Source of the DNA: Escherichia coli
GTDB lineage: Bacteria; Pseudomonadota; Gammaproteobacteria; Enterobacterales; Enterobacteriaceae
DNA length: 64,000 nt
Assembly: GCF_036507355.1 (NCBI RefSeq)
Contig: NZ_AP027878.1
Direction: 5' to 3' (one strand)
In this document: positions 11,980 through 29,754 of the stretch, one piece after another
Position numbering within the stretch: the first letter of the stretch is position 1
Layout: every line of letters starts with the position of its first letter
Program-made: the position numbers and the translations under genes
Notes under the pieces: model-generated
Seen by the model: only the letters and a program-made list of their open reading frames with translations
What the model was told of the DNA's origin: nothing
Database searches by the model: none

Positions 11980-11998
11980 TTATCTTACCTAATAAAAT

Positions 11999-12015
11999 AA
12001 ATTAATTAGAGCAAT
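11999..12015. promoter_or_regulatory. C1 repressor operator upstream of ssb
   Basis: AAATTAATTAGAGCAAT, one mismatch to reverse complement of P1 operator consensus ATTGCTCTAATAAATTT. Confidence 0.6.
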
Positions 12016-12147
12016 AATGTATATCTTTGAAACGTAGCTAACAAGTGATTTGCATTATCCTGTGTCTTCTAAAGGGATCGAGTCAGTCGGTATTGGCTGT
12101 GAATGGGTGTTTGTCCTGGAGCGTAAAAATTCGCTTATGAGGTCTTT

Positions 12148-12705: not shown

Positions 12706-12952
12706 ACTCCGGCAGCTCCGCCGACTTTCGACAATGAAGTTATCGCTGGCGGCGATAGTTTTCGACTCGATTTTCATGGCGGTATATGTGCTCAATGAGA
12801 CGTGGCCACTGGAACCGCTATTGTATGCAGGGCTTCGGCTGTGCCTGACATTTTTGAGCATGGCTGCAAGATTGATGCAGCAGAAAGAAACCGCTTCAGA
12901 TTGTCCACGCCGCGCGGTGCGCAAATATATGGCACGCAGGCGAAGGCGATAA
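12698..12952 (+). CDS. Small membrane protein overlapping lyz stop (possible lysis accessory)
   Basis: 84-aa ORF begins in ATGAATAA overlapping lyz stop, two hydrophobic segments, followed by a terminator. Confidence 0.35.
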   Translation: MNKLRQLRRLSTMKLSLAAIVFDSIFMAVYVLNETWPLEPLLYAGLRLCLTFLSMAARLMQQKETASDCPRRAVRKYMARRRRR

Positions 12953-12965
12953 TAGTTAACGAGAA

Positions 12966-12991
12966 CCCCGGCAGCTGCCGGGGTTATTTTT
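12966..12991. terminator. Intrinsic terminator between lyz region and pro
   Basis: CCCCGGCAGCTGCCGGGG palindromic stem followed by TTATTTTT. Confidence 0.65.
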
Positions 12992-12996
12992 GGTGG

Positions 12997-15727
<2,731 letters not shown>

Positions 15728-15793
15728 TTAATTAGAATAATTCACATCGTGTTTGAACGGAATTTAACACTAGTCACTTGTTAAGGATTACCA

Positions 15794-18700
15794 ATGAACA
15801 AGCTATCTATGGGGGTGTTTCGCTGTTCAAGTGTCAGCGAAATATTGAAATACATTAGGGCAATAACATCTCACCGAGCGCCGATTAAATACGGCGTGGA
15901 AAAGGTGGAAGGCAAAAGCTATGACCGACTGCGCCGGGAGGCGAATCAGAAGGCGATAGATTTGCTTAATTCGCTGGTGGACGGCGCGACACTGACAGAT
16001 GAACAGCGCCAGATCCTGGCTGGGTACACCGGTGAAGGCGGCATTGGCGGGTCCGTCTCCGAATATTACACACCAAAGCCGATCGCTGAAGGTGTCTGGG
16101 AGATCATGAAGCTCTACGGCGCGGACGTAGGTAACACTCTGGAACCATCGGCGGGCACCGGCGTTTTTAATGAGACAAAACCGGTTGGTACGGTGATGAC
16201 TGCGACTGAGATCAGCAGTGTTTCCGGTCGTATAAACCAGCTGTTACACCCGGAAGACAGCGTACAGATTTCCCCGTTCGAACAGCTGGCTGTAAGCACG
16301 CCTAACGATTCATTCGACCATGTTGTGGGTAACGTTCCGTTCGGTGGTCGTGATAACACACGCAACATCGATAAGCCTTACGCAGAAGAAACGGACATGG
16401 GTTCTTACTTCATGCTCCGCATGCTGGACAAGATAAAGCCAGGCGGATTCATGTGCGTGATTGTGCCGCCGTCCATTGTTTCAGGTTCAAACATGAAGCG
16501 GTTACGCCTGCGCCTATCACGGAAAGCTGAATTTCTTGGTGCTCACCGCTTGCCTACCGGTACTTTTGACGCAAACGGGACCAGTACAGTCGTTGATGTG
16601 GTGCTGATGCGCAAACATCCGGCAGAGATGGCTGAGAAAATCCCCCTGGTGGATGAAAGCACTCTTGAATCGGCAAATGTGCTTTGGCCAACGTTTATTT
16701 CTGGCAAGTGGTTTGAAAAGGACGGTCGCCGGTTTGTTCATGGCACCCAGGAGAAGGGATTCCAGGGGCGTATTGAGGTTCGTGCCGACGGGCAGATTGA
16801 TAACCAGGCTCTTAAAGCGAAGCTGATTCATCGTTTCGAAAGTCGTATCGACTGGTCTTTGCTCAATATGGCTGAACCGTCACCGACCGCAGACGTTGTT
16901 GATGAAGGGGAAATGCGCCTGATTAATGGCGTATGGCAAAAATATGCTGGTGGTCGCTGGATTGAATCTGATGCAGGGAAGGAGCTGAAGATTGATGTTG
17001 CCAGTTATGGCGCGGACAGCTGGGAGGCTCTTCAGCGTAACCTGACTACAACAGAAGGCCGTCTCGGTATGACATTTACCCAGATGGCAAATGTCCGCGA
17101 TAAGTACACCACATCAATCAGCGACGATATGGTGCAGCTGGTGGACTGGATTAACAGCCAGCCTGAAAAATACCGTGAACGCTTGTATCGCGGGGCGATG
17201 ATTGGCCGGATGTTAATTGAATATCAGGACATGAAGGCCGCCGGGCATAGTGCTGAACAAATCGAACAGCAGCGCCTTTCTCTGGTATCCCGTTTGCAGG
17301 CAGAGATTGACCGTTTTGGTAACCCCGGTCGCGGTCCGATAGCGAAATTATCGGGGAGCGGTGCGCGCGCCTGGTTTGCTTTCCGTGGTGCAATTAAGCT
17401 GGATGGCACTATTTCTGACGAGCTGACAGGAAAACTGGTTACGCATGATTCCAGCGCCAGTTATGACTCCACCAGCTATCAGGACACCCTGCGTTATCTC
17501 TACAGTGATCTCACTCGCGATCCAATCCAGCTCGATGATTTCCGCCTTGCGTTTACCGGCGAACTGCCAGCCAGTGATGACGAGTTGCTTAATTTATTGG
17601 CCAGCACCCCTGGCATTGCGGTTTCACCGTATGGCGGGATTGTTCCGTTCGCCCGCGCCACCAGCGGCGACATTAACGAGATAGTGGCACCAAAACAGGA
17701 ATTCCTTGCCACACTCCCCGACGGTCCAGTAAAGAACAACGTCCTTAATCAGTTGGCAGCGATCGAAGAGAAGCGCATCAAGACGCCAGCAGAGAATATC
17801 CGCTTTAAGCTCAATAGCCGTTGGTTCGACCGTTCCGTCATTCTGGAATTTTTGCAGGAAAACGGCTATCCGGATCTGCGCTATGTGCAGTCAGTGCAGC
17901 TGGAAGGCGACGAAATGGTTTCTGACACCTATCACGGTGGTGATGGTCTGTTCGTCGGGCACCGATACGGTGTCGTCCAGCGCAAGGATAAAGAAACAGG
18001 CGAGATCCGCTACGAGTGGGATCGTAAATCAGGTGAAAACGCGACCGGGTTCCCGGCACAGCTGGAAAAGTATCTCAATGGTGCGCGTATCGGTGGCAAA
18101 GATAGCGCGACGGCGAACGGCTACCGCGAGCAGATGGCACTGCTTGAGGACCAGTTCAATAAGTGGATCAAGACGCACGATCGCTACGATGAACTGGTTG
18201 CCAAATACAACGATGTGTTCAATAGCAATATCCCGTATGAACACTCTGGCGATCCGCTTGGGTTGAAGGGATTAAGCGGTAAGCGCCAGCCATTTGATTA
18301 CCAGAATAGCGAAGTGCGCCGACTGTCCGAAGATGGGCGCGGCATCCTGGGCTTCGGCACTGGGCTGGGTAAAACTACGACCGCGCTGGCGCTTGAGGCG
18401 TTCAACTATGAGAACGGTCGCTCCACCCGTACTGCGTATGTAGTGCCTAAATCAGTGCTGGAAAATTGGTATTACGAAGCTAAAGAATTCCTGAGTGAAG
18501 AGGCATTCAGTAACTACTTGTTCGTCGGTCTTGATGTGCTGATGGATGGCGATCAGATTCGCCAGGTGCCGGTGCTCGATGAGAACGGTAAACCTGTTCT
18601 TGGTACTGATGGCACTCCAGTTATGCGCGATGCTCTTAAGCTGGCAGATGAAGCCACTATCACGGCGCGGATGAATGCGATCCCGCACTCAAATTACCGT

Positions 18701-21700
18701 GCAGTCGTGTTTACCAAAGAACAATACGCCCGCATTCCGCTACGTGATGACACCGTAGATGAGCATGCACAAGACATGCTTTATGACTTCGTTGCTGCCG
18801 GACGTGTGGCCAGCGCAATGGATTCCGATTCCCATCGCAAAGAGGCCGCGCGTCGCCGGGTATTGTCGGAGTATTCAGATACCGGCACCGAAAAAGCAGA
18901 GAAGTATCCGTACTTTGAGGATATGGGCTTCGATAGTGTGATCGCCGACGAAGGCCACAACTACCGCAATAGCTATAAAAATGGTCGCGAAGCGTCACAG
19001 CTAGCCTATCTGCCCACCAGCGCGGTAGCGCAATCGGCGCGAGATATGGCAATTAAAAACGCGTACCTGATGAAAAAGAATGGTGGGCGCGGGCCGGTTC
19101 TCCTGACTGCAACGCCAGTCGTTAACACCCCGATCGATGCATACAACATGCTTTCTCATGTTCTGCCGAAGGAATACTGGCAGAACATGGGGATCTACGG
19201 TCCTGATGACTTCGTTAAATTCTTCGGCAAGACCAGGCTGGAAACGGTACAGAAAATTAGCGGTGAAGTTGAAGAAAAAATGGCGCTGGTGGGCTTTGAA
19301 AACCTTGATGCGCTGCGCGGTATATTCCATCGCTGGGTAACGCTTAAAACGGCGGAAGACGTTAAGGATACCGTGGAGATCCCGGAGCTGGACGAACACC
19401 AGCAGGATGCACCACTTACTGAAGAACAACTGGCGGCGTATGAAGAATTGCGTCAGCAGGCGGAAGCGGCGGCCAAAGCCAACAATGGCGTAACGACCTC
19501 GGTCAATGAAGACGGCGTGATTGAGCACGAGAAAGCCCGTCCGATCTTCTCAATAATCAGGGATATGGACCGCGTATGTACTGACATGGACCTGTACTAT
19601 CGCCGGATCACCTATCGTTTCCTGCCGGAGTACGCCGATGCGGTGCAGCAGCTGGCGGACAGTTTGCCTAAACAAGCCACCAGCGAAGACGACGACAGTG
19701 ATGATTCAATCACGCAGCAATCGCAATACTCCCTGATAGATAAGGGCGAGTTTATTCAGTTGCAGGTTCCGGAAGCGTTCGAGCAGGAAGTGAATAAGCG
19801 CCTGGCCAGGTTTGGCATTGACGAACAGACCGTAACTCACCCCGTTACGCCCAAATACGCGAAGCTGATTGCCACGCTGAAGGAGTTTTTCCCGGAAGGT
19901 AAGCAAATCATCTTCACCGATGAAAAAACGCAGCACCAGAAGCTCAAGCGCATTATCTGCAATGCTCTTAACCTTGAACCTTCAAAGGTGGGGATACTGA
20001 ATGCTCAGACGGTTGCCGAGGCAGGTAAAACCGGTAAGAAACTGAAAGCGGTTAAACCGCCGAAAGAGTTACCGGATGAACCAACAGATGCACAGATAGC
20101 GAAATACAACGAGCAAATGGCTCTGTATGACGCCTATATCGCGCAGCAAAATGAAATGTCGTTGGGCGGTCTGGAAAAGATTGCAGCCGACTTCCAGGAG
20201 GGCCGGACTCCGATCATCATCTGCAACAAAAAGGCAGAGGTGGGTATCAACCTGCATCGAGGAACGACTGACATCCATCATCTGACGTTGCCATGGACTC
20301 CAGCCAGTATTGCGCAACGAAACGGTCGCGGTGCCCGAGTTGGCTCCAACCGTGCAAGCGTTCGCGTTCACTACTACTGCGGCAAGGGGTCTTTCGATGA
20401 ATACCGACTGAAGACGCTGAAGCGTAAAGCAGGCTGGATCTCCGATATCCTCCGTTCAGATAAGTCAGAAATGGAGAACGCCGACGCCAACGATATGATC
20501 GAAATGCAGATGTATACCGCGAAGGATGACGGCGAACGTCTGGCAATGATGCAGGTTCAAATGGATAAGGCGAAAGCTGCGAAACGCGCTCGCCAGAAAG
20601 AACAGGCTACTATCGACCTTCAGAACTACATCAAGGCGCAGCACGCAGCTGGTGAGGATGTGGAGGTACTTACCGCTGAATTGGAGCGAAGCAAAGCGGA
20701 ACTTGAAAAGACCACCGCCGACGTCGCCAAATTCAAACAGGCGGTAATGGCCAAAGCAGCTGATAACGCAGACTGGAAAGCCCGCTGGGGTAGCGTCCAT
20801 CACACAGACCGTATGTTGTTAGCACAGTATCGCGCGTCGTTGAAAAGCGCCATTCAGCGCAAGGCTAATATCTCTCAGGCCATCTCCCGCTATGAGAAAT
20901 TATTGAACCGTACTCAGAAGGCCGCGACGGATATCAAACGCCTGCGCCCGCTGGTGGAGGATGCAATAAATAAAGGCATTCTGGATGTTGATCCTGATCT
21001 GGTTAACCATGCGAATGAGTTCCTTGTTATCGGCGATCGCTCATGGCGTGTAGGCCAATACTATGATTGTGCCGGTGATATCGTTCGCATTAAGTCGCTG
21101 GACTTCGACAGCCAGCGCGCAGACGTGGAGATCATCTTTACCTTCAAAGGCACCAAATCGGGTAACTGGGATGTGAAGACGCTGGATAAACAGGTTGATG
21201 TAACTCCCGATGAAGATGCTGTTATGCAGAAAATCAGTGGTGGCGTCTCCATCGCCGGGATTAACGACATCGTTTCCTGTGACGATTTCTACCGTTTCCA
21301 GCAGCGCGGCATGATCAAAATCACTGACTCATACGGCGTTCAGACTACAGAGTCAGGCTATAGCATTGATTTTGTTGGTACCTATACGGACCCACTGAAG
21401 CATGCGGTTTACCCGGATCGCCGTGACGGCGCGCTGAAGTCGTCAATTGCAAAATGGGTGCTTGGTATGATGTCGGAAGGGAATAACCGCCAGATCCGTT
21501 CGGCAGAAGCATTCCTGGTTGAACTGTTTGGCTCCAATTATGGCGATGTAATCGCATCATACGGAGATACGCTATCCCCTGAAGCACTTCAGGAGAAAAT
21601 AGCGGATGCGATCGCCAGAATGCCGGAGAAAACAAGCCAGGGGGCTACTCGTAACGGGGATTCTGAACTTGAAGTCACCAATGCCATTTTCGGTACCAAT

Positions 21701-22561
21701 GAGTTCCGGGCGTCAGATTATGAGATCACCACAGCACAGTTTGGCACCATTGGCATTTACAGCAATAAAGCCGAGATCAAGCAGGCAATGGACGCAGCAA
21801 GCGCGCGCATCGCAGCAGAACGGGAAGCCAATCTGAATCATGCAGTCGCCGCGCTGACTCAATCGTGGGTAACAGCAATCAGGGAGGCCGCCACCACAGG
21901 GAAAATCACACCTGCAATAGCGGATGTCGTAAACGACGGCTCTAAATTTATGGATGCCTATCAAATGGATGCGGTGAAGTTGCCATCAGCCTATGGTCAA
22001 CTCAGCTATCGCATGACCTACAACCTGGTATCAATGTTTTCCGACCTTGCCATCCTTGGGCTGGTGGATCTTAACGAGGTTACGCCGGAATTGCTCAGCA
22101 TGCGCAAGAATCATGTGGAGATATTGCAGAGAATTAACACGGTTCTTGCCGGGCGCACCGATGAAGAGAAACAGGCCGACGCTGATCGGATAAACCTGGC
22201 CCTTGGCAACATCACGGAGGAAGAGATTGCCGCCAGAAACGAGAAACAAGAAGAGTTATCATCAATACAGGGTGATGCCACCAGCATAGCTCAGTCTCTT
22301 GGTCTGAATTATCGCGTATCCACCGCCGACCTGAAGATGATGTACGCACCAAAATTCGCCGCTGGCGAGGTATTTGGGCTTCAGGAAGCCTCAGGCATGA
22401 AAGGCGTTCTTTTCCGTGCGAAAGACGCAATCAAGGCGAAATTCGGCGCTCGCTGGCTGCCAGCGAAGGCGAAGAACAGCGATTTCCCGGGTAACTGGTG
22501 GATTATCGAGACAAAACACAACGTGGCGGACGTTCTGGCCGTCATCCAACAATACGCATAA
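15794..22561 (+). CDS. darB: DarB, giant anti-restriction protein (N6-adenine methyltransferase plus DExH helicase)
   Basis: 2255 aa; NVPFGG MTase-like motif, GFGTGLGKTTTA Walker A, VIADEGHNYRN DExH box; length equals P1 DarB. Confidence 0.85.
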   Translation: MNKLSMGVFRCSSVSEILKYIRAITSHRAPIKYGVEKVEGKSYDRLRREANQKAIDLLNSLVDGATLTDEQRQILAGYTGEGGIGGSVSEYYTPKPIAEGVWEIMKLYGADVGNTLEPSAGTGVFNETKPVGTVMTATEISSVSGRINQLLHPEDSVQISPFEQLAVSTPNDSFDHVVGNVPFGGRDNTRNIDKPYAEETDMGSYFMLRMLDKIKPGGFMCVIVPPSIVSGSNMKRLRLRLSRKAEFLGAHRLPTGTFDANGTSTVVDVVLMRKHPAEMAEKIPLVDESTLESANVLWPTFISGKWFEKDGRRFVHGTQEKGFQGRIEVRADGQIDNQALKAKLIHRFESRIDWSLLNMAEPSPTADVVDEGEMRLINGVWQKYAGGRWIESDAGKELKIDVASYGADSWEALQRNLTTTEGRLGMTFTQMANVRDKYTTSISDDMVQLVDWINSQPEKYRERLYRGAMIGRMLIEYQDMKAAGHSAEQIEQQRLSLVSRLQAEIDRFGNPGRGPIAKLSGSGARAWFAFRGAIKLDGTISDELTGKLVTHDSSASYDSTSYQDTLRYLYSDLTRDPIQLDDFRLAFTGELPASDDELLNLLASTPGIAVSPYGGIVPFARATSGDINEIVAPKQEFLATLPDGPVKNNVLNQLAAIEEKRIKTPAENIRFKLNSRWFDRSVILEFLQENGYPDLRYVQSVQLEGDEMVSDTYHGGDGLFVGHRYGVVQRKDKETGEIRYEWDRKSGENATGFPAQLEKYLNGARIGGKDSATANGYREQMALLEDQFNKWIKTHDRYDELVAKYNDVFNSNIPYEHSGDPLGLKGLSGKRQPFDYQNSEVRRLSEDGRGILGFGTGLGKTTTALALEAFNYENGRSTRTAYVVPKSVLENWYYEAKEFLSEEAFSNYLFVGLDVLMDGDQIRQVPVLDENGKPVLGTDGTPVMRDALKLADEATITARMNAIPHSNYRAVVFTKEQYARIPLRDDTVDEHAQDMLYDFVAAGRVASAMDSDSHRKEAARRRVLSEYSDTGTEKAEKYPYFEDMGFDSVIADEGHNYRNSYKNGREASQLAYLPTSAVAQSARDMAIKNAYLMKKNGGRGPVLLTATPVVNTPIDAYNMLSHVLPKEYWQNMGIYGPDDFVKFFGKTRLETVQKISGEVEEKMALVGFENLDALRGIFHRWVTLKTAEDVKDTVEIPELDEHQQDAPLTEEQLAAYEELRQQAEAAAKANNGVTTSVNEDGVIEHEKARPIFSIIRDMDRVCTDMDLYYRRITYRFLPEYADAVQQLADSLPKQATSEDDDSDDSITQQSQYSLIDKGEFIQLQVPEAFEQEVNKRLARFGIDEQTVTHPVTPKYAKLIATLKEFFPEGKQIIFTDEKTQHQKLKRIICNALNLEPSKVGILNAQTVAEAGKTGKKLKAVKPPKELPDEPTDAQIAKYNEQMALYDAYIAQQNEMSLGGLEKIAADFQEGRTPIIICNKKAEVGINLHRGTTDIHHLTLPWTPASIAQRNGRGARVGSNRASVRVHYYCGKGSFDEYRLKTLKRKAGWISDILRSDKSEMENADANDMIEMQMYTAKDDGERLAMMQVQMDKAKAAKRARQKEQATIDLQNYIKAQHAAGEDVEVLTAELERSKAELEKTTADVAKFKQAVMAKAADNADWKARWGSVHHTDRMLLAQYRASLKSAIQRKANISQAISRYEKLLNRTQKAATDIKRLRPLVEDAINKGILDVDPDLVNHANEFLVIGDRSWRVGQYYDCAGDIVRIKSLDFDSQRADVEIIFTFKGTKSGNWDVKTLDKQVDVTPDEDAVMQKISGGVSIAGINDIVSCDDFYRFQQRGMIKITDSYGVQTTESGYSIDFVGTYTDPLKHAVYPDRRDGALKSSIAKWVLGMMSEGNNRQIRSAEAFLVELFGSNYGDVIASYGDTLSPEALQEKIADAIARMPEKTSQGATRNGDSELEVTNAIFGTNEFRASDYEITTAQFGTIGIYSNKAEIKQAMDAASARIAAEREANLNHAVAALTQSWVTAIREAATTGKITPAIADVVNDGSKFMDAYQMDAVKLPSAYGQLSYRMTYNLVSMFSDLAILGLVDLNEVTPELLSMRKNHVEILQRINTVLAGRTDEEKQADADRINLALGNITEEEIAARNEKQEELSSIQGDATSIAQSLGLNYRVSTADLKMMYAPKFAAGEVFGLQEASGMKGVLFRAKDAIKAKFGARWLPAKAKNSDFPGNWWIIETKHNVADVLAVIQQYA

Positions 22562-22594
22562 CAGGAGCGCCCGGTTCGCCGGGCGTCGCATAAT

Positions 22595-23035
22595 ATGGCC
22601 ACACTATCTGATACAATAAAACCGAATAAAACATATCTTGAGGCGGTACTCCGTACAGCGTTGTTAGGAAAGACAGAAGACGAATACGTTGATTTCTTCC
22701 TGTCAGGGCTACGCGGGCGATTACTGAAAAATCCCCGCCTGTACCGCAGCTATGGTCCATACTGGCCGGAAATTAAAAAATTATTACTGGAGCGCGGTTA
22801 TGGTAATTTCGGTCGTCTCGTTGACCGTGACGTTCGCAAAATTTACCGTTATGACCGCCCGGCGCTGACACTCATAGCCGCGACGCTCTACAGCCAGGAG
22901 CGTTTTGATAATGGTCAGATATACTCAGCCTGGCATTTACTGCCAGTGCCTGAAGAGGTTGACGACCAGGACTATGAGTTTGAGTCTTACGATTTGGAAG
23001 TTGAAGCCTTAGCACAGGCTGGAGAGAAAACTTGA
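22595..23035 (+). CDS. ulx: Ulx (upstream of lxc), hypothetical
   Basis: 146-aa ORF between darB and lxc. Confidence 0.45.
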   Translation: MATLSDTIKPNKTYLEAVLRTALLGKTEDEYVDFFLSGLRGRLLKNPRLYRSYGPYWPEIKKLLLERGYGNFGRLVDRDVRKIYRYDRPALTLIAATLYSQERFDNGQIYSAWHLLPVPEEVDDQDYEFESYDLEVEALAQAGEKT

Positions 23036-23280
23036 AAAAGCGATACTACACAGTAAAGCATGGGACGCTACGAGCATTACAAGAGTTTGCTGACAAGCAT
23101 AACGTTGAGGTGCGCAGGGAAGGGGGAAGTAAAGCTCTGCGCATGTACCGTCCGGACGGGAAATGGCGGACGGTCGTCGATTTCAAAACAAACAGTGTTC
23201 CCCAGGGCGTCCGTGACCGGGCATTCGAAGAATGGGAGCAGATCATCATAGATAATGCATTGCTTCTCAATGCGGATTAA
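23032..23280 (+). CDS. lxc: Lxc, small modulator of C1 repression
   Basis: 82-aa ORF overlapping ulx stop; size and position match P1 lxc. Confidence 0.55.
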   Translation: MKKRYYTVKHGTLRALQEFADKHNVEVRREGGSKALRMYRPDGKWRTVVDFKTNSVPQGVRDRAFEEWEQIIIDNALLLNAD

Positions 23281-23431
23281 ACTTCCCCAAATTATGGCTG
23301 TTTGCTCACCGAGCATCGCTCAAAGAAGCACGATTCTTCAAACATATAGATAGTGATAGTGCCACAACTTCTGGCTCTAACGGGCTGGGGAGGCGGCGCT
23401 TTGTTGCTAAATGATCTGGTTTAAAATGGAT

Positions 23432-25372
23432 ATGAAAAAAGAAACGATTTTTTCCGAAGTAGAAACGGCTAACAGCAAGCAACTGGCTGTGTTGAAAGCT
23501 AATTTCCCACAGTGTTTTGATAAAAACGGAGCCTTCATTCAAGAAAAATTGCTTGAGATTATTAGAGCATCGGAGGTTGAACTCTCTAAAGAATCATACA
23601 GTTTAAACTGGCTGGGTAAATCTTATGCCCGTTTGTTGGCCAATCTACCACCGAAAACGTTGTTGGCAGAAGATAAAACACATAACCAACAAGAAGAGAA
23701 CAAGAACAGTCAAAACCTGTTAATCAAAGGGGATAACCTCGAAGTATTGAAGCATATGGTTAATGCTTATGCTGAAAAGGTGAATATGATTTACATTGAC
23801 CCACCATACAATACGGGTAAAGATGGATTCGTCTATAACGATGATCGCAAGTTTACACCAGAACAGCTTTCTGAACTGGCAGGTATCGAGCTTGATGAGG
23901 CTAACCGCATACTTGAATTTACCACCAAGGGTTCAAGCAGTCATAGTGCATGGCTGACATTCATTTATCCTCGTCTTTATATTGCACGTGAACTTTTAAA
24001 AGAGGATGGAGTAATATTCATCTCCATAGACGATAACGAAGATAAACAGTTGGGATTATTATGCGACGAAGTATTTGGGCAAGGTAATTTTGTTGCAAAA
24101 CTCCCTACAATCATGAATCTCAAAGGCAATCATGATAACTTTGGCTTTTCAGATACGCATGAATATATATATGTATACGCTAAAAACAAAGATGTTTGTA
24201 GTTTGGGGCAATTCGATATTGATGAAAGTGAAGTTGAAAAAGAGTGGGATGAAGATGAATATGGGCTATTTAAAAGAGCTGATACATTAAAGCGTACTGG
24301 CCAAGATGCTTCTAGAAAATCAAGACCAAAAGGTTGGTTTCCGGTATTCATCAATTCAGAAAATAAGGTTTATGTAACAGATGATGATAAACCTCTTAAC
24401 GAAGATGACTATGTACTTTACCCAGTAAGCCCTACGGGTGAAGAGCTTTCATGGTCGTGGGGAAAGAAAAAAATAAATGATGAGTTTTATAATCTAATAG
24501 TAATAGATATAAAAGATGGTAAAAATATCTATAAAAAACAGCGGCCTGCTCTTGGAGAGCTACCAACTAAAAAGCCAAAATCAATTTGGTATAAACCTGA
24601 ATATAGTACAAGCACGGCGACAACTGAGCTTAAAAATCTTTTAGGTGCAAAATTATTTGAAGGACCAAAACCTGTTCCTCTTATAACCGATCTTGTAAAA
24701 ATAGGAACAAAAAAGGATTCATTAGTTCTTGACTTTTTTGCTGGCTCTGGTACGACAGCAGAAGCTGTTGCATATTTAAATGAAAAAGATTCAGGCTGTA
24801 GGAATTTTATATGCATACAAAAAGATGAAGTTATAAATAAAACAAAGAATGCCTATTCTCTTGGCTATAGATCTATTTTTGAAATAACAAAAAAAAGGAT
24901 ACAGGAGGTATTTAAAAAAAGCACAACCACAAGTGATAATGCGGCTAAAATAGGTTTCAAAGTGATTCATACTATTGATGACTTTAGAGCAAAAGTTGAG
25001 TCTGAACTTACGCTCACTAATCATACATTCTTTGATGATGCGGTATTAACGCCTGAACAGTATGATGCCCTATTGACTACATGGTGTGTATATGATGGTA
25101 GCTTGTTAACAACACCTATTGAAGATGTTGATCTTAGTGGCTATACAGCACACTTTTGCAATGGCCGTCTGTATTTGATTGCACCTAATTTTACTAGCGA
25201 AGCATTGAAAGCGTTGCTCCAAAAGCTGGATTCAGATGAAGATTTTGCCCCAAACAAAGTCGTGTTTTATGGTTGTAACTTTGAAAGTGCAAAACAAAGG
25301 GAGCTTAATGAGGCGCTAAAAAGTTATGCTAACAAAAAATCTATTGAGTTAGATTTAGTGGTAAGGAACTAA
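23432..25372 (+). CDS. mod: Type III restriction-modification methyltransferase Mod (EcoP1I-like)
   Basis: 646 aa from MKKETIF...; IYIDPPYNTG motif IV; AT-rich; directly precedes res. Track ORF starts 23411. Confidence 0.85.
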   Translation: MKKETIFSEVETANSKQLAVLKANFPQCFDKNGAFIQEKLLEIIRASEVELSKESYSLNWLGKSYARLLANLPPKTLLAEDKTHNQQEENKNSQNLLIKGDNLEVLKHMVNAYAEKVNMIYIDPPYNTGKDGFVYNDDRKFTPEQLSELAGIELDEANRILEFTTKGSSSHSAWLTFIYPRLYIARELLKEDGVIFISIDDNEDKQLGLLCDEVFGQGNFVAKLPTIMNLKGNHDNFGFSDTHEYIYVYAKNKDVCSLGQFDIDESEVEKEWDEDEYGLFKRADTLKRTGQDASRKSRPKGWFPVFINSENKVYVTDDDKPLNEDDYVLYPVSPTGEELSWSWGKKKINDEFYNLIVIDIKDGKNIYKKQRPALGELPTKKPKSIWYKPEYSTSTATTELKNLLGAKLFEGPKPVPLITDLVKIGTKKDSLVLDFFAGSGTTAEAVAYLNEKDSGCRNFICIQKDEVINKTKNAYSLGYRSIFEITKKRIQEVFKKSTTTSDNAAKIGFKVIHTIDDFRAKVESELTLTNHTFFDDAVLTPEQYDALLTTWCVYDGSLLTTPIEDVDLSGYTAHFCNGRLYLIAPNFTSEALKALLQKLDSDEDFAPNKVVFYGCNFESAKQRELNEALKSYANKKSIELDLVVRN

Positions 25373-25374
25373 TC

Positions 25375-28287
25375 ATGTCAAAAGGGTTCACATTCGAAAA
25401 GAACTTACCGCATCAGAAAGCAGGTGTCGATGCGGTGATGAACGTTTTTGTTTCCGCGACATCTCATCAGGAGGATAATGTTTCTATTCGCCTGTTAGTT
25501 AATCCAGAATTACGGCTTACTGAACAGCAATACTATAAAAATATAAAAAAAGTTCAGGAACTCAATGGTATTGAACATGTAAAAAATAATTACGATGCTA
25601 GAAGCAACGTAATTGATGTTTCTATGGAGACAGGTACAGGTAAAACGTATACCTACACTAAAACAATTTTTGATCTGAACAAATCATTTGGCATTAATAA
25701 GTTTATCATTATTGTTCCTACTCTATCGATCAAAGCTGGAACAGTGAACTTTTTGAAAAGCGATGCGTTAAAAGAACACTTTAGAGATGATTATGAGCGT
25801 GAAATAAAGACTTACGTTGTTGAAAGTCAGAAAAATGCCGGTAAAAGCACAAAATCGTATATGCCTCAAGCTATACATGATTTTGTTGAAGCTAGTAATT
25901 TCAATAAGAAATATATACACGTTCTTGTTATTAACACGGGAATGATTCACTCTAAGAATTTAAATTCCACTTATGATGTTGGCTTGCTTGACAATCATTT
26001 TGATTCTCCCTTTTCAGCTCTTGGTGCGGTAAAACCATTCATTATCATTGATGAACCACATAAATTTCCTACTGGTAAAAAGACATGGGAAAATATAGAG
26101 AAGTTTAATGCTCAATATATTATCCGCTACGGTGCGACCTTTAGTGAAGGCTATAAGAATTTAGTTTATCGACTTACAGCTGTGGATGCATTTAATGAAG
26201 ACCTTGTTAAAGGTATTGATGCGTACATTGAGGATATTGTTGGTGATGGTGACGCCAACCTAAAGTTCATTAAATCTGATGGGGAAGAAGTTACATTTGA
26301 GCTAAATGAAAATAACAAGAAAACTTTATTTAAGTTAACAAAAGGTGAATCTCTATCTAAGACACATAGTGCTATTCACGATTTAACTCTTGATGCCTTA
26401 GGCAAGAATACAGTAGTGTTGAGTAATGGTATTGAGCTAAAAATTGGTTGCTCAATAAACCCCTATTCTTACGATCAGACACTTGCTGACAGCATGATGA
26501 GGAAAGCTATCAAAGAACACTTTAAGTTAGAAAAAGAGTTTCTGACACAAAGGCCACGCATAAAGCCTCTTACTCTTTTCTTTATTGATGATATTGAAGG
26601 TTATCGTGACGGTAATAATATTGCCGGAAGTTTGAAAGCTAAGTTCGAAGAATATGTTTTGGCAGAAGCTAATGAACTGTTAAAAATAGAAAAAGATGAG
26701 TTTTATAGTAACTATCTTGAAAAAACAGTTAAAGATATATCTTCCGTTCATGGCGGTTATTTTTCAAAAGATAACAGTGATAAGGATGATAAAATCGAGA
26801 AGGAAATCAACGAAATCCTTCATGACAAAGAGCTTTTGCTGTCTTTAGATAATCCACGTCGTTTCATTTTCTCCAAATGGACGTTGCGTGAGGGATGGGA
26901 TAATCCTAATGTCTTTCAGATCTGTAAGCTCCGTTCGAGCGGTAGTACCACATCCAAGCTTCAAGAGGTAGGGCGCGGTTTGCGTCTTCCTGTGAATGAA
27001 TACATGTGTCGAGTGAAAGACCGCAATTTTACCCTTAAATATTATGTCGATTTTACAGAAAAGGATTTTGTTGACTCACTTGTTAAAGAGGTCAATGAGA
27101 GTTCTTTCAAAGAAAGGGTTCCAAGTAAGTTTACTCAAGAGCTTAAGGAACAAATCAGGGCTCAGTATCCTGAGCTTTCATCCAGAGCACTAATGAATGA
27201 ACTTTTCAATGATGAAATCATTGATGACAATGATAATTTCAAAGATTCAGATGCCTACAGCCGCTTAAAATCCAAATATCCAGCAGCATTCCCTATAGGA
27301 GTGAAACCAGGTAAAATCAAAAAAGCTACTGATGGAAAAAGACGCACTAAAATGCGTGTTGGTAAGTTCAGTGAGCTGAAAGAACTATGGGAATTAATCA
27401 ATCAAAAAGCGGTGATTGAGTACAAAATAAACAGTGAAAATGAGTTTTTATCCATTTTCAAGTCATTCATGCTCGAAGAAACAGAACGATTTACCAAATC
27501 AGGCGTTCATACTCGCATTGATAAAATTTACATCCACAATGATATGGCAATGTCGAAAAGCATTGTTAGTGATGACGATGACTTTGCTAAGCTAAACACA
27601 ATGAGTTATCGAGAGTTTCTCGATAACTTATCACAGACTATTTTTGTTAAACACGATACTTTACATAAAGTTTTTTGTGATATAAAAGACACTATTAATA
27701 TCACTGAATACCTGAATATTCAAACAATCAGAAAAATTAAATCTGGTTTTAGTAAGTATTTGTTGAACAATTCGTTTAATAAATTCAGCCTCGGATATAA
27801 TTTGATTTCGGGTTCAATTCATCCCACAAAGTTCACAAATGCTGATGGTAAGCCTCTAGACGAGGTATTATCAAGTGATCTTGGTGTATTACAGGATAAT
27901 TCAAAAGCACCATTAGATACTTATCTTTTTGAAGAAGTTTTTTATGATTCAGAGCTTGAAAGGCGTAATATAACAGATAGAGAGATCCAGTCTGTTGTTG
28001 TTTTTTCAAAGATACCGAAGAATTCTATTAAGATCCCGGTAGCTGGTGGATACACTTACTCACCCGATTTTGCTTATGTTGTAAAAACAGCAGAAGGTGA
28101 TTATCTTAACTTTATCATTGAAACAAAAAACGTAGATAGTAAGGATAGTTTACGGCTTGAAGAAAAAAAGAAAATTGAACATGCCCAGGCGCTTTTCAAT
28201 CAAATAAGTCAGTCTGTTAAAGTTGAATTCAAAACGCAGTTTGCTAATGATGATATTTATCAGTTAATCAAGAGCGCATTACCATAA
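25375..28287 (+). CDS. res: Type III restriction endonuclease Res (EcoP1I-like)
   Basis: 970 aa; METGTGKTYTY Walker A, IIIDEPHKF DEPH box. Confidence 0.85.
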   Translation: MSKGFTFEKNLPHQKAGVDAVMNVFVSATSHQEDNVSIRLLVNPELRLTEQQYYKNIKKVQELNGIEHVKNNYDARSNVIDVSMETGTGKTYTYTKTIFDLNKSFGINKFIIIVPTLSIKAGTVNFLKSDALKEHFRDDYEREIKTYVVESQKNAGKSTKSYMPQAIHDFVEASNFNKKYIHVLVINTGMIHSKNLNSTYDVGLLDNHFDSPFSALGAVKPFIIIDEPHKFPTGKKTWENIEKFNAQYIIRYGATFSEGYKNLVYRLTAVDAFNEDLVKGIDAYIEDIVGDGDANLKFIKSDGEEVTFELNENNKKTLFKLTKGESLSKTHSAIHDLTLDALGKNTVVLSNGIELKIGCSINPYSYDQTLADSMMRKAIKEHFKLEKEFLTQRPRIKPLTLFFIDDIEGYRDGNNIAGSLKAKFEEYVLAEANELLKIEKDEFYSNYLEKTVKDISSVHGGYFSKDNSDKDDKIEKEINEILHDKELLLSLDNPRRFIFSKWTLREGWDNPNVFQICKLRSSGSTTSKLQEVGRGLRLPVNEYMCRVKDRNFTLKYYVDFTEKDFVDSLVKEVNESSFKERVPSKFTQELKEQIRAQYPELSSRALMNELFNDEIIDDNDNFKDSDAYSRLKSKYPAAFPIGVKPGKIKKATDGKRRTKMRVGKFSELKELWELINQKAVIEYKINSENEFLSIFKSFMLEETERFTKSGVHTRIDKIYIHNDMAMSKSIVSDDDDFAKLNTMSYREFLDNLSQTIFVKHDTLHKVFCDIKDTINITEYLNIQTIRKIKSGFSKYLLNNSFNKFSLGYNLISGSIHPTKFTNADGKPLDEVLSSDLGVLQDNSKAPLDTYLFEEVFYDSELERRNITDREIQSVVVFSKIPKNSIKIPVAGGYTYSPDFAYVVKTAEGDYLNFIIETKNVDSKDSLRLEEKKKIEHAQALFNQISQSVKVEFKTQFANDDIYQLIKSALP

Positions 28288-28296
28288 TTCCAGTTT

Positions 28297-28321
28297 AAAA
28301 GGAGGTGAAAACCTCCTTTTT
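28297..28321. terminator. Intrinsic terminator after res
   Basis: AAAAGGAGGT-GAAA-ACCTCCTTTT hairpin with T run. Confidence 0.7.
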
Positions 28322-28362
28322 ATGACATCCAACACGACCTGAAAGAAGTGGCGCTCAGGTCG

Positions 28363-29004
28363 TTAAAAATAGTTTCCCTTTCCAGTTAAGATTCCATGTG
28401 GAACGCTTTTTTCCGCAAGTCTCTGTGTGCCGCGAATTATGTTAATCAGTGGGCTTAGTAACGATGGTTCCTGGCGTGGCTCAACTTCTCCAGCCATTGC
28501 CCTGATGTAGTCGGAGTTTGCAACGTTGTTGTATTCCGTTGCGAAGCAGCATAACAACGTCAGAACGTGCTCTGTCGTTATTTCGCTCCAGTTGATGTTG
28601 AAAAATTCATCGCCTTTTTTGTCATGTTCGGAATCGAAGATGCTTTGGTGGAGGATGTATTTGCCGGATTCCTTGCGCGGTAACTTGATCGCTTTCTGGC
28701 GTTCTAATTCCTTGTAAATCTGCATTGCTTCAATCAGTACCGGTCTACCGTTCATGAAGGGATCACGCAACCTTACACGCTGGCCAACTCGTCCAGTAAT
28801 AAAGCTGTTTTCCTCTTCCACCAGCACGATAAAACCCTTTTCCTCTTTTTCTCGCAATTCGCGCAGCAGCTGGAGTTCCATATCGCGGCGGCGTTCAGGG
28901 TAGCTGGTCCGCTCAGCCATTATCAGCTCGTTATTGATCCATGCAGCAGTCATTGACGCCGGTTTGCCGACGCTCATCGAAACAACGCATATTTTCTTAT
29001 CCAT
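28363..29004 (-). CDS. mat: Mat-like protein (particle maturation), hypothetical
   Basis: 213 aa from ATG 29004 (MDKKICVV...) with AGGGGG RBS; track ORF extends to 29151. Confidence 0.45.
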   Translation of the reverse strand: MDKKICVVSMSVGKPASMTAAWINNELIMAERTSYPERRRDMELQLLRELREKEEKGFIVLVEEENSFITGRVGQRVRLRDPFMNGRPVLIEAMQIYKELERQKAIKLPRKESGKYILHQSIFDSEHDKKGDEFFNINWSEITTEHVLTLLCCFATEYNNVANSDYIRAMAGEVEPRQEPSLLSPLINIIRGTQRLAEKSVPHGILTGKGNYF

Positions 29005-29193
29005 AGCGCCCCCTACAAAAAAGAAAAGCCACCAGCGGCGGCTTAGCAATACAACTGAAGGTAGCGCCCGGTACTCAGACTGTGCCGTCCATGGAATATT
29101 TGAAAAGGGATCCATCCGTACCGGGCGTGTGATGATTCTGACTGAAGTCACTTGTCAGTTGTCAATCATTTATCATTAAAAATAATATATTTA

Positions 29194-29754
29194 TTAGTGC
29201 ATGATGTTTGCCATCTCATAGGCGTCAGCCAGTAACTCCATCTCTGACTTGTTCAGCAAGGTGAATTCTTTCTTGCCTCCAACCACACCATCGGCATGAA
29301 CAGGGACCAGCCATGGGTATTTTTCTCTTACTTCAGCCGGAGCTGCATGCTGGTGGTGCCATCTACAAAGTGGCAATTGCTTTTTATGACAACCCGGCGC
29401 GGTACGACCGGCGATATGGTGCAGAGACACCTCATTAGATATTACTCCATGCATATAGCAGGCAATGCAGGGGAGAGCGCCAAGAGCATTGGCGATGCGC
29501 CGTTCCTCCGCCGTTGGTGTTCTCCCCTTCAAGCCACGAGATTTTATTTTTACCGCGCTTTTCCGCGTTTTGCTGGCTGGTGGGCGCTCTTTCTGTTTAG
29601 CGATACGGCGGTCGAGAGTATCCCGCATTTTCTGATATTGAGATTCTCGCCAGACCGGATCAGCCAACTTCTCCCGTTGCCGAGCGATCGCTCGTTCTCT
29701 GGCTGCCTTCTGCCACTTGCGGCACTGTTCAATTTTTTGTTCGATTGTTTTCAT
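29194..29754 (-). CDS. ref: Ref, HNH endonuclease (recombination enhancement function)
   Basis: 186 aa from MKTIEQKIEQ...; C-terminal CIACYMHG...HHIAGR...CRWHHQ HNH motif. Confidence 0.8.
   Translation of the reverse strand: MKTIEQKIEQCRKWQKAARERAIARQREKLADPVWRESQYQKMRDTLDRRIAKQKERPPASKTRKSAVKIKSRGLKGRTPTAEERRIANALGALPCIACYMHGVISNEVSLHHIAGRTAPGCHKKQLPLCRWHHQHAAPAEVREKYPWLVPVHADGVVGGKKEFTLLNKSEMELLADAYEMANIMH

What the first reader, a model, noticed from the sequence alone, without database searches (positions are those of the whole stretch)
15794..28287. Adjacent anti-restriction (DarB) and type III restriction-modification genes form a defence/counter-defence island
The 2255-aa methyltransferase-helicase DarB is followed by ulx, lxc and an AT-rich EcoP1I-like mod-res pair. 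The AT-richness of mod-res relative to darB points to separate acquisition. The Mod target-recognition region determines specificity and cannot be assigned from sequence alone.
Basis: partly seen in the sequence, partly recalled or inferred. Interest (0 to 1): 0.3.

Follow-up and report, generated by a model that had tools for sequence, protein, structure and literature searches.

The report
Phage P1 darB and EcoP1I genes
This stretch is the long-known darB-ulx-lxc-mod-res region of a P1-type phage-plasmid, carrying an intact copy of the classic EcoP1I restriction system, so it is real but ordinary.

Summary
Window 15794-28287 runs from the darB start codon to the res stop codon, with darB (2255 aa), ulx, lxc, mod and res all on the + strand. 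GC drops from 0.52 in darB to 0.35-0.36 in mod-res.

The window is a natural P1-like phage-plasmid. Its mod-res segment is not merely "EcoP1I-like". It is 100% identical in nucleotide sequence to the original EcoP1I operon record (X06287), and it lacks the IS5 that disrupts mod in the reference P1 genome. The specificity can therefore be assigned by identity: EcoP1I, site AGACC from the literature.

"Separate acquisition" is supported. The 5.1-kb AT-rich cassette fills the gap between the stop codons of lxc and mat. That gap is empty in some relatives and holds at least 13 other AT-rich cargos in others. This variable region and the foreign origin of res-mod are already published.

I found no evidence that DarB and EcoP1I work together. 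About 95% of P1-like elements that match this region lack this cassette. The Dar proteins are documented against type I systems and BREX, not type III.

Novelty: already known. Interest: low.

The parts
15794..22561 (+). darB: 2255-aa virion-packaged anti-restriction protein, with an N6-adenine methyltransferase domain at aa 145-291, an SNF2/ResIII helicase N-domain at about aa 833-911 and Helicase_C at aa 1455-1517
   Evidence: ORF; Pfam; phrog_1685 matched full length and phrog_10089 'DarB-like antirestriction'. There are 21 aa differences from P1 DarB (94 synonymous against 21 non-synonymous codon differences) and the N-terminal 40 aa are identical. P1 and P7 annotation.
22595..23035 (+). 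ulx: 146-aa Dar component that aids DarB localisation into the capsid
   Evidence: phrog_1629 'Ulx-like anti-restriction', E 4.5e-66; 2 aa differences from P1 Ulx; role taken from the table in PMC9024508.
23032..23280 (+). lxc (bof): 82-aa modulator of the C1 repressor. It is neither a defence nor an anti-defence gene. Its stop codon is the left edge of the variable slot.
   Evidence: 100% aa identity to P1 Lxc; annotation; homology to all slot classes ends at this stop codon.
23281..28362 (.). AT-rich EcoP1I cassette occupying the lxc-mat intergenic slot (GC 0.357 measured over 23288-28407). Nucleotide homology to relatives without the cassette resumes at 28363-28408, inside the diverged 3' end of mat.
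   Evidence: Junction mapping against RCS47, SJ46 and OP279344; GC; slot survey; no flanking terminal repeats.
23255..23381 (+). mod promoter region: P2mod at 23255-23283, which straddles the lxc stop codon and the left junction, and P1mod at 23353-23381. Coordinates are transferred from the P1 annotation.
   Evidence: P1 annotation mapped onto the window through the gap-free alignment. The window has no differences from P1 at 23012-28452. Promoter activity was not tested here.
23432..25372 (+). mod: EcoP1I modification and recognition subunit, 646 aa (alternative in-frame starts at 23411 and 23426). DPPY at aa 123 and FAGSG at aa 436.
   Evidence: 100% identical to the X06287 mod product and one aa different from P7 Mod; Pfam N6_N4_Mtase 1.1e-43 and T3RM_EcoP15I_C 3.8e-34; PADLOC MTase_III 6.3e-253; motifs.
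24197..24613 (+). Core of the Mod central variable (target-recognition) region, aa 256-394. Divergence from EcoP15I-type Mod begins at about aa 215 and strong identity resumes at about aa 515.
   Evidence: phmmer against EcoP15I Mod (4zcf_A) aligns only aa 1-255 and 395-646. BLASTP against an EcoP15I-type Mod from the same slot (L026) shows conserved ends and a divergent centre, 59% identity overall. Four-way alignment.
24180..24183 (.). Site where IS5 interrupts mod in the reference P1 genome (mod749::IS5). It is uninterrupted here.
   Evidence: The alignment to NC_005856 breaks exactly here. IS5 and its 4-bp target duplication are annotated.
24879..25273 (+). res promoters inside the 3' part of mod: P3res 24879-24905, P2res 24912-24940 and P1res 25245-25273. 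Coordinates are transferred from the P1 annotation.
   Evidence: annotation mapped through the identical sequence. The consensus scan also finds a promoter-like site at 24911/24912-24940, but that scan as a whole is at the chance level.
25375..28287 (+). res: EcoP1I restriction subunit, 970 aa. Helicase motifs TGTGKT (aa 86) and DEPH (aa 226); C-terminal PD...ExK nuclease motif from aa 897.
   Evidence: 0 aa differences from P1 Res; full-length match to EcoP15I Res 4zcf_C; Pfam ResIII 4.4e-18 and RE_endonuc 4.1e-25; PADLOC REase_III, 1682.9 bits.
28297..28321 (+). Hairpin followed by T (AAAAGGAGGT-GAAA-ACCTCCTTTT-T) 10 nt after the res stop codon. Probably the intrinsic terminator of the cassette.
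   Evidence: Read directly from the sequence. The consensus scanner did not call it. Function is inferred.
28363..29115 (-). mat: conserved right flank of the slot, convergent with lxc and res. Its last ~15 codons diverge between slot classes.
   Evidence: Annotation; phrog_1837; junction alignment.
2594..8488 (+). hdf-darA-ddrA-ddrB: the other four genes of the Dar anti-restriction system, about 7.3 kb from darB.
   Evidence: ORFs of 203, 639, 121 and 995 aa are collinear with P1 hdf, darA, ddrA and ddrB. The six-protein composition of Dar is from PMC12707154 and PMC9024508.

Best explanation
The interval is the canonical darB-ulx-lxc-mod-res segment of a P1-type (Punavirus) phage-plasmid. 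It holds three functionally separate modules that happen to be neighbours.

(1) darB and ulx belong to the six-protein Dar system. DarB has an N-terminal capsid-targeting signal and is packaged into virions (about 40 copies), with Ulx, DdrB, DarA and Hdf helping. The Dar proteins are believed to enter the new host with the DNA and act only in cis on the packaged DNA. DarB protects it against type I restriction by EcoB and EcoK.

(2) lxc modulates the C1 repressor.

(3) mod-res is the EcoP1I type III restriction-modification system, intact here. Mod recognises AGACC and N6-methylates an adenine on one strand. Mod plus Res, using ATP, cuts unmethylated incoming DNA about 25-27 bp from a site when two sites lie in inverse orientation. 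This protects the lysogen from other phages and probably helps keep the plasmid.

The EcoP1I genes are a 5.1-kb AT-rich cassette sitting between the stop codons of the convergent conserved genes lxc and mat. In related elements this position holds many alternative AT-rich cargos. The cassette has no transposon-like ends, so it is most likely exchanged by homologous recombination in the conserved flanks.

Shown here: gene identity and integrity, catalytic motifs, cassette boundaries, slot polymorphism and the mosaic pattern. Taken from the literature or my own knowledge: all biochemical activities, the AGACC site, the timing of expression and Dar packaging.
For: Identity: 99.0% to P1 and 98.8% to P7 over 12,494 nt, and 100.0% to X06287 over mod-res. 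There are no nucleotide differences from P1 at 23012-28452, and IS5 is absent.

Integrity: full-length ORFs; DPPY and FAGSG in Mod; TGTGKT, DEPH and PD..ExK in Res; Pfam, PADLOC and PDB matches.

DarB: the N-terminal 40 aa are identical to P1, and substitutions are mostly synonymous (94 against 21). The capsid-targeting signal lies in the first 30 aa according to PMC9024508. Ulx matches phrog_1629. The remaining Dar genes are present.

Cassette: GC 0.357 against 0.52 in darB. Homology to RCS47, SJ46 and OP279344 stops at 23276-23287 and resumes at 28363-28495, depending on the relative.

Slot survey: 73 IMG/VR P1-like loci fall into 15 slot classes. One is empty (8 loci), one is EcoP1I (4), one is EcoP15I-type (4), and the rest are other cargos. 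All 14 non-empty classes have GC 0.32-0.43.

Mobility between replicons: cassettes about 85% identical, with the same Mod centre (91% aa identity), occur on unrelated 40-45 kb plasmids of Klebsiella, Citrobacter, Enterobacter, Salmonella, Serratia, Raoultella and E. coli.

Exchange by recombination: the window alternates between blocks with 0-5 and blocks with 10-30 differences per kb from P1. The cassette lies inside a near-identical block running from 23012 to about 37000, whereas darB lies in a block about 1.7% diverged. No flanking repeats were found.

Prior literature: RD-1 (res-mod) is described as a low-G+C hot-spot, and res-mod as a recent acquisition (PMC6906374).
Against: Nothing in the sequence contradicts this reading. 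The limits are as follows. No activity was measured. The mod start codon is ambiguous (23411, 23426 or 23432). The promoters are transferred from the P1 annotation, and the generic promoter/terminator scan is at the chance level. Homologous recombination as the exchange route is inferred from the mosaic pattern and the lack of terminal repeats, not demonstrated.
Confidence: 0.93

Rival explanations
1. One reading: darB-ulx and mod-res form one co-selected, functionally coupled defence/counter-defence island, for example with DarB shielding the phage from its own or related type III enzymes, or with the genes co-regulated.
For: All five genes are adjacent and co-oriented. Both modules deal with restriction. 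The arrangement recurs in P1, P7, phi456 and vB_EcoM-813R1, in 42 plasmid records and in 37 complete E. coli genomes.
Against: Only 42 of 750 plasmid records that match the darB-to-res query cover at least 80% of it, as do only 37 of the 741 E. coli genomes with a match. In the IMG/VR survey the slot next to lxc, with darB and ulx upstream in nearly every locus, holds EcoP1I in 4 of 73 loci and unrelated cargos or nothing in most others. Plasmid pE2855-2 carries a type III system in the slot with no room for darB or ulx. lxc, which has its own three annotated promoters, separates the two modules, and mod and res have their own annotated promoters. Dar is documented against type I systems and BREX only. 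darB and the cassette lie in different recombination blocks.
Confidence: 0.06
2. The mod-res cassette is kept mainly as a selfish addiction module that stabilises the plasmid prophage by post-segregational killing, rather than as anti-phage defence for the lysogen.
For: The element is a low-copy plasmid prophage; the par and rep genes lie in the same window. PMC6906374 lists res-mod among P1 plasmid addiction systems. PMC10879196 notes that R-M systems spread as poison-antidote elements. The window has 33 AGACC sites on the + strand and 31 on the - strand, so sites in inverse orientation are present and unmethylated DNA of this element would be a substrate.
Against: This is not exclusive of defence. 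EcoP1I is the textbook example of restriction of incoming phage (my knowledge). The alternative cargos in the same slot include several that match defence or defence-candidate models: SIR2-like, RelA/SpoT (PDC-S33), PIN (PDC-S34), DUF2971 (PDC-S31) and JukA. That points to selection for anti-phage function at this position.
Confidence: 0.25
3. The mod-res pair is inactive: a decayed or specificity-altered remnant, as in the reference P1 genome where IS5 disrupts mod.
For: The commonly used reference P1 (mod749::IS5) does carry a disrupted mod. Some plasmid copies are interrupted by insertion sequences (H102, H120 and H157).
Against: Both ORFs here are full length and there is no IS. The nucleotide sequence is 100% identical to the original EcoP1I operon record X06287. 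All the catalytic motifs checked are present.
Confidence: 0.02

Closest known systems
Bacteriophage P1 genome, res-mod-lxc-ulx-darB segment (NC_005856 / AF234172, positions 3544-17236; genome paper by Lobocka et al. 2004, cited from my knowledge)
   Same: Same genes, order, orientation and sizes. Res and Lxc are 100% identical. The mod-res DNA is identical apart from the IS5. The N-terminal 40 aa of DarB are identical.
   Different: mod is uninterrupted here, whereas the reference carries mod749::IS5. The darB-prt-pro block is about 1.5-1.7% diverged (21 aa changes in DarB, 2 in Ulx). The window is a mosaic relative to P1. At its left end it has a Hin-type invertase module instead of Cin.
EcoP1I type III R-M operon (GenBank X06287; paper by Huembelin et al. 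1988, cited from my knowledge)
   Same: 100.0% nucleotide identity over 5,041 nt and 100% Mod identity (one search hit H19; one search hit H22).
   Different: None detected.
EcoP15I (PDB 4ZCF; p15B-type allele)
   Same: Res aligns over its full length at high identity (2008 bits). Mod aa 1-255 and 395-646 are highly conserved, with the same domain layout and C-terminal domain. An EcoP15I-type allele occupies the same lxc-mat slot in 4 of 73 surveyed P1-like loci.
   Different: The central region of Mod is unrelated, with the core at aa 256-394 and weaker similarity across about 215-515. The recognition sequence therefore differs: CAGCAG for EcoP15I against AGACC for EcoP1I (both from my knowledge).
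Phage P7 EcoP7 mod-res and darB (AF503408)
   Same: Collinear at 98.8% identity. Mod differs by a single residue.
   Different: Ten nucleotide differences across mod-res (one in mod, nine in res). P7 carries Tn3 just beyond mat.
RD-1 variable region of P1-like plasmids (Venturini et al. 2019, PMC6906374)
   Same: Same locus (P1 3,469-9,749), described there as a low-G+C hot-spot where res-mod is replaced by other ORFs. My survey reproduces this.
   Different: That paper compared three elements. Here 73 loci were sorted into 15 classes and the cargos annotated.
Defence hotspots of P2-like phages and P4-like satellites (Rousset et al. 2022, PMC9122126)
   Same: The concept is the same: a fixed position between conserved phage genes holding interchangeable, AT-rich cargos that match anti-phage or candidate defence models.
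   Different: A different phage family and different flanking genes. The analogy is mine and membership was not tested; the paper appeared only as a search hit and I did not read it.

Membership tests
Type III restriction-modification system (EcoP1I/EcoP15I family) | Mod is a beta-class N6-adenine methyltransferase: motif IV (DPPY) comes before motif I (FxGxG), with the target-recognition region between them | tested here: met
   DPPY at aa 123 and FAGSG at aa 436. The variable centre lies between them. Pfam N6_N4_Mtase and T3RM_EcoP15I_C.
Type III restriction-modification system (EcoP1I/EcoP15I family) | Res combines an SF2 helicase-like ATPase with a C-terminal PD-(D/E)xK endonuclease domain | tested here: met
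   TGTGKT at aa 86, DEPH at aa 226 and PD..ExK from aa 897. Pfam ResIII and RE_endonuc. Full-length match to 4zcf_C.
Type III restriction-modification system (EcoP1I/EcoP15I family) | mod lies immediately upstream of res in the same orientation | tested here: met
   mod ends at 25372 and res starts at 25375.
Type III restriction-modification system (EcoP1I/EcoP15I family) | Sequence identity to the EcoP1I operon record, which is what allows the specificity to be assigned | tested here: met
   100.0% to X06287 over 5,041 nt. Mod 100% identical. No differences from P1 at 23012-28452.
Type III restriction-modification system (EcoP1I/EcoP15I family) | Hemimethylation of AGACC, and ATP-dependent cleavage 25-27 bp away that needs two inversely oriented unmethylated sites | not testable with these tools
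   This is biochemistry. The only sequence observation is that the window contains 33 + strand and 31 - strand AGACC sites.
P1 Dar (defence against restriction) system | A DarB-type giant protein with methyltransferase and helicase domains | tested here: met
   2255 aa; N6_Mtase, SNF2-rel_dom/ResIII and Helicase_C; phrog_1685 matched full length; 21 of 2255 aa differ from P1 DarB.
P1 Dar (defence against restriction) system | An N-terminal capsid-targeting sequence (first 30 aa) that directs DarB into virions | tested here: met
   The first 40 aa are identical to P1 DarB. The signal is defined experimentally in PMC9024508. Packaging itself was not tested.
P1 Dar (defence against restriction) system | The partner genes ulx, hdf, darA, ddrA and ddrB are present | tested here: met
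   ulx at 22595-23035. hdf, darA, ddrA and ddrB at 2594-8488, with the P1 sizes and collinear alignment.
P1 Dar (defence against restriction) system | Protection of the packaged DNA, in cis, against type I restriction | not testable with these tools
   This needs efficiency-of-plating assays.
   42 of 750 plasmid records, 37 of 741 E. coli genomes and 4 of 73 IMG/VR loci carry the P1-type cassette. The darB/ulx probes matched in nearly all of the 80 surveyed loci. One plasmid has a type III system in the slot and no room for darB.
   The P1 annotation places separate sigma-70 promoters before darB, lxc (three), mod (two) and res (three). No transcript data are available, and the consensus scan is uninformative.
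Phage-encoded defence hotspot (variable cargo between conserved flanks) | The same insertion point between conserved genes holds many unrelated cargos, including known defence genes | tested here: met
   There are 15 slot classes between the lxc and mat stop codons. Cargos match SIR2/ThsA-like, PDC-S31, PDC-S33 (RelA_SpoT), PDC-S34 (PIN), JukA and type III R-M models.

The most novel reading that the evidence does not exclude
The gap between the lxc and mat stop codons is a general cargo hotspot of P1-type phage-plasmids, and EcoP1I is only one of at least 14 interchangeable AT-rich cargos found there. Several cargos match no known defence model: a YaaC-like protein paired with a nucleoside-deoxyribosyltransferase-like protein, an EAL-domain protein paired with a 170-aa protein, GNAT acetyltransferases of 201-202 aa, and a 132-aa protein with a lipoprotein-like N-terminus. 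These could be undescribed anti-phage systems that are swapped by homologous recombination in the flanks. This concerns relatives of the window, not the window itself. The hot-spot is already published as RD-1.
Probability: 0.4. Interest if true: 0.4.

Novelty: already known. Interest (0 to 1): 0.08.

Why it matters
For this window it matters little. It re-identifies one of the oldest known restriction systems (EcoP1I) and the P1 Dar anti-restriction genes in their textbook arrangement. The practical value is modest: this P1-like element has an intact EcoP1I, unlike the reference P1 genome, so its lysogens should methylate AGACC and restrict incoming DNA. The side survey is a compact reminder that the position next to lxc is a swap site for defence genes in P1-type phage-plasmids, and it may be a place to look for new single-gene defence systems.

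Tried and rejected
(1) Avoidance of the EcoP1I site in the phage's own genome. There are 64 AGACC sites, against 81.9 +/- 8.5 in dinucleotide-preserving shuffles and about 119 expected from base composition. However, a third-order Markov expectation gives 60.5 (observed/expected 1.06, rank 357 of 512 pentamers). There is no specific avoidance, so I dropped the idea.

(2) Transposon-like ends of the cassette. The repeat finder on 23000-28700 gave only short, low-identity AT-rich matches, with nothing at the junctions. Inspection of the junctions across 15 slot classes showed no shared motif beyond the flanking genes.

(3) Generic promoter and terminator scan of 15500-29300. It found 22 promoter-like sites against 23.1 expected, and 17 terminator-like sites against 13.9 expected. 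This is uninformative, so I relied on the P1 annotation instead.

(4) Literature. The P1 genome paper (tried as PMC523184), Piya et al. 2017 (PMC6011833) and Gilcrease & Casjens 2018 are not in the held library. Statements that rest on them are marked as my own knowledge or are cited second-hand.

(5) Exact source. No phage, plasmid or complete E. coli genome record matches the region exactly. The best is 99.3-99.4% (NZ_CP037905).

(6) Two paper searches failed because terms were too short.

(7) I did not use structure prediction or the large protein database searches. The 100% and ~99% identities to characterised proteins made them unnecessary.
Full report
**Observation.** The ORF list shows five co-oriented ORFs on the + strand:

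| Gene | Coordinates | Length |
|---|---|---|
| darB | 15794-22561 | 2255 aa |
| ulx | 22595-23035 | 146 aa |
| lxc | 23032-23280 | 82 aa |
| mod | 23411-25372 | 653 aa from the longest start |
| res | 25375-28287 | 970 aa |

The mod start annotated in P7, and the first residue of the EcoP15I Mod chain in the PDB, correspond to 23432, which gives 646 aa. GC is 0.51-0.53 over darB and falls to 0.34-0.37 over mod-res. By gene, GC is 0.520, 0.360 and 0.347, and third-position GC is 0.575 against 0.29-0.31.

**What the window is.** Megablast of the interval finds phage P1 at 99.0% and P7 at 98.8% over all 12,494 nt. It also finds the original P1 mod/res record X06287 at 100.0% over 5,041 nt. The whole window is collinear with P1 in reverse orientation. 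Window 1205-31830 corresponds to P1 31836-1, and window 31831-64000 to P1 94800-62632. The window therefore comes from a P1-type phage-plasmid, with cre, c1, pac, phd-doc and repA all present.

The P1 and P7 records annotate this stretch as darB, ulx (olxA in P7), lxc, mod and res, followed by mat on the opposite strand. No database record is identical. The best is 99.3-99.4%, an E. coli pig isolate plasmid.

**The R-M genes.**
- Between window 23012 and 28452 there is not one nucleotide difference from reference P1. The only exception is that the 1.2-kb IS5 splitting mod in the reference (P1 mod749::IS5) is absent.
- Res is 100% identical to P1 Res. Mod is 100% identical to the X06287 product and differs from P7 Mod at one residue.
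- Mod keeps DPPY (aa 123) and FAGSG (aa 436). Res keeps TGTGKT, DEPH and a C-terminal PD...ExK motif.
- Pfam gives N6_N4_Mtase and T3RM_EcoP15I_C for Mod, and ResIII and RE_endonuc for Res. PADLOC gives MTase_III (6.3e-253) and REase_III (1683 bits).
- Against solved structures, Res matches EcoP15I Res over its full length. Mod matches EcoP15I Mod only at aa 1-255 and 395-646. This is the classic picture of conserved ends around an allele-specific target-recognition centre.
- An EcoP15I-type Mod from the same genomic slot in another P1-like contig shows the same pattern, at 59% overall identity.

The central region is the EcoP1I type, complete and unmutated. Because it is identical to the characterised enzyme, the specificity can be assigned by identity: AGACC, from my knowledge of the EcoP1I literature.

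**The anti-restriction genes.**
- DarB has an N6-adenine methyltransferase domain (aa 145-291), an SNF2/ResIII helicase N-domain (about aa 833-911) and Helicase_C (aa 1455-1517).
- It differs from P1 DarB at 21 of 2255 residues, with 94 synonymous against 21 non-synonymous codon changes. This indicates purifying selection.
- The first 40 residues are identical. That span includes the 30-residue capsid-targeting signal defined experimentally (PMC9024508).
- Ulx matches the "Ulx-like anti-restriction" PHROG at 4.5e-66.
- According to the literature, Dar is a six-protein virion-packaged system (DarA, DarB, Ulx, DdrA, DdrB, Hdf). It acts in cis on the packaged DNA and protects against type I systems and BREX. 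DarB is assigned to EcoK/EcoB, and Ulx to DarB localisation.
- The other four genes are in the window at 2594-8488, about 7.3 kb from darB. Lysis, ssb, IS1, protease and portal genes lie in between.

**Separate acquisition.**
- *Boundaries.* Compared with P1 relatives that lack the system (RCS47, SJ46, OP279344), homology stops within a few bases of the lxc stop codon (23276-23287). It resumes at 28363-28495 depending on the relative, at or just inside the 3' end of mat.
- *Alternative contents.* In RCS47 lxc and mat are directly adjacent. SJ46 has a RelA/SpoT gene there, and OP279344 has two hypothetical genes.
- *Survey.* I fetched 80 P1-like contigs from IMG/VR using Lxc as the query. Of these, 73 contain both flanks, and their slots fall into 15 sequence classes.

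| Slot class | Loci | Best family match |
|---|---|---|
| Empty (74-84 nt) | 8 | none |
| EcoP1I | 4 | type III R-M |
| EcoP15I-type | 4 | type III R-M |
| SIR2-like, 338 aa and 435 aa forms | 11 and 1 | PADLOC PDC-S25 / ThsA-like |
| DUF2971 protein | 9 | PDC-S31 |
| RelA/SpoT proteins, two variants | 6 and 3 | PDC-S33, E 7.7e-87 |
| PIN protein | 6 | PDC-S34 |
| GNAT acetyltransferases, two variants | 5 and 4 | Pfam only |
| JukA + HTH + antirepressor module | 4 | JukA |
| EAL-domain protein + 170-aa protein | 3 | Pfam EAL only |
| YaaC-like + deoxyribosyltransferase-like pair | 3 | Pfam only |
| 132-aa protein with a lipoprotein-like N-terminus | 2 | none |

- *Composition.* Every non-empty class is AT-rich (GC 0.32-0.43).
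- *Junctions.* Most classes have their own hairpin immediately after the lxc stop codon. No terminal repeats flank the EcoP1I cassette.
- *Mosaic.* The window alternates between blocks that are nearly identical to P1 and blocks that are 1-3% diverged. The cassette lies in a near-identical block (23012 to about 37000), while darB, prt and pro lie in a block about 1.7% diverged. Exchange by homologous recombination in the conserved flanks is the simplest reading, but it is an inference.
- *Other replicons.* Related cassettes about 85% identical, with the same Mod centre (91% aa identity), also sit on unrelated 40-45 kb plasmids of Klebsiella, Citrobacter, Enterobacter, Salmonella, Serratia, Raoultella and E. 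coli. The module clearly moves between replicons.

**Is it an "island"?** Adjacency is real, but I found nothing that makes the two modules a functional unit.
- lxc, a modulator of the C1 repressor with three annotated promoters of its own, sits between them. mod and res also have their own annotated promoters.
- Of 750 plasmid records that match the darB-to-res query, only 42 cover at least 80% of it. The figure is 37 of the 741 complete E. coli genomes with a match, and 4 of 73 IMG/VR loci carry the P1-type cassette.
- One P1-like plasmid (pE2855-2) carries a third Mod allele in the slot, with no room for darB or ulx between pro and lxc.
- Dar is documented against type I and BREX, not type III.
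- I therefore rate the coupled-island reading at about 0.06. A role for res-mod in plasmid addiction, in addition to defence, remains plausible (PMC6906374; PMC10879196).

**Comparison with what is known.** Venturini et al. 2019 explicitly describe P1 3,469-9,749 (res-mod) as RD-1, a low-G+C hot-spot where res-mod is replaced by other ORFs. Citing the P1 genome paper, they call res-mod a previously recognised recent acquisition. A 2025 preprint reports that the Dar system is present in every P1/D6 sequence it screened. It also reports that P1-like elements variably carry type III R-M, CapRel, dGTPase and PrrC. My slot survey refines these reports but does not overturn them.

**Verdict.** Novelty is "already known" and interest is 0.08. 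The most novel reading still open is that the unannotated cargos in the lxc-mat slot of related elements are new defence genes. I give that a probability of about 0.4 and moderate interest. It concerns relatives of the window rather than the window itself.

Noticed in passing
L010-L089 (IMG/VR P1-like contigs), the slot between the lxc and mat stop codons; equivalent to window 23281-28362: The slot holds 15 sequence classes in 73 loci. They are: empty, EcoP1I, EcoP15I-type, SIR2-like (two forms), DUF2971/PDC-S31, RelA_SpoT/PDC-S33 (two variants), PIN/PDC-S34, GNAT (two variants), JukA+HTH+ANT, EAL protein + 170-aa protein, YaaC-like + deoxyribosyltransferase-like pair, and a 132-aa protein with a lipoprotein-like N-terminus. 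All non-empty classes have GC 0.32-0.43.
   Followed up: partly
L008 (Klebsiella pneumoniae plasmid NZ_CP021954, 42.8 kb), 6019-10880: A type III R-M about 86% identical in DNA to EcoP1I, with a Mod that is 91% identical including the central recognition region. It sits on an unrelated 40-45 kb plasmid family next to type 4 pilin, H-NS, Dam methylase and ankyrin-repeat genes. One search found 44 plasmid records in this 80-90% identity band, across Klebsiella, Citrobacter, Enterobacter, Salmonella, Serratia, Raoultella and E. coli.
   Followed up: partly
L009 (E. coli pE2855-2, NZ_AP018798), 4153-9050: A third Mod allele (63% identical, with a different centre from both the EcoP1I and EcoP15I types) occupies the same slot. 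Only about 2 kb separates pro from lxc, so darB and ulx appear to be missing. The PLSDB gene table omits pseudogenes, so this needs checking.
   Followed up: partly
window 1-64000: Mosaic identity to reference P1. Blocks with 0-5 differences per kb (about 6-13 kb, 23-37 kb and 46-60 kb) alternate with blocks at 10-55 per kb (2-6 kb covering the darA operon, 13-23 kb covering pro-prt-darB-ulx, about 39 kb, 42-46 kb and 61-64 kb near repA/upfA).
   Followed up: partly
window 1-2000 (ORF 492-1073 +): The left end does not align to P1 before position 1205, and the lydC region is only about 85% identical. The best matches (vB_EcoM-673R5 and vB_EcoM-813R1) annotate Hin1/Hin2 invertases here, so this element has a different tail-fibre inversion module from P1 Cin.
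   Followed up: partly
window 23255-23283: The annotated P2mod promoter straddles the lxc stop codon and the left cassette junction. Its -35 box lies in conserved lxc sequence, and its -10 box spans the stop codon and the first cassette bases. It is a hybrid promoter created at the junction.
   Followed up: no
window-wide; sites listed: AGACC occurs 33 times on the + strand and 31 times on the - strand. This is fewer than in dinucleotide shuffles (64 against 81.9 +/- 8.5) but as expected under a third-order Markov model (60.5). There is no specific avoidance. Three sites lie inside the cassette, all on the + strand.
   Followed up: yes
L003 (Salmonella phage SJ46), 9016-15768: darB is annotated as two ORFs (9016-13497 and 13678-15768) rather than one 6.8-kb gene. 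This suggests a disrupted or mis-sequenced darB in SJ46.
   Followed up: no
window 23411-23434: mod has three in-frame candidate start codons (23411, 23426 and 23432). P7 is annotated from the equivalent of 23432. The RefSeq annotations of the related plasmids L008 and L009 use the equivalent of 23426 (MDMKKE...). None has an obvious strong Shine-Dalgarno sequence at ideal spacing.
   Followed up: no
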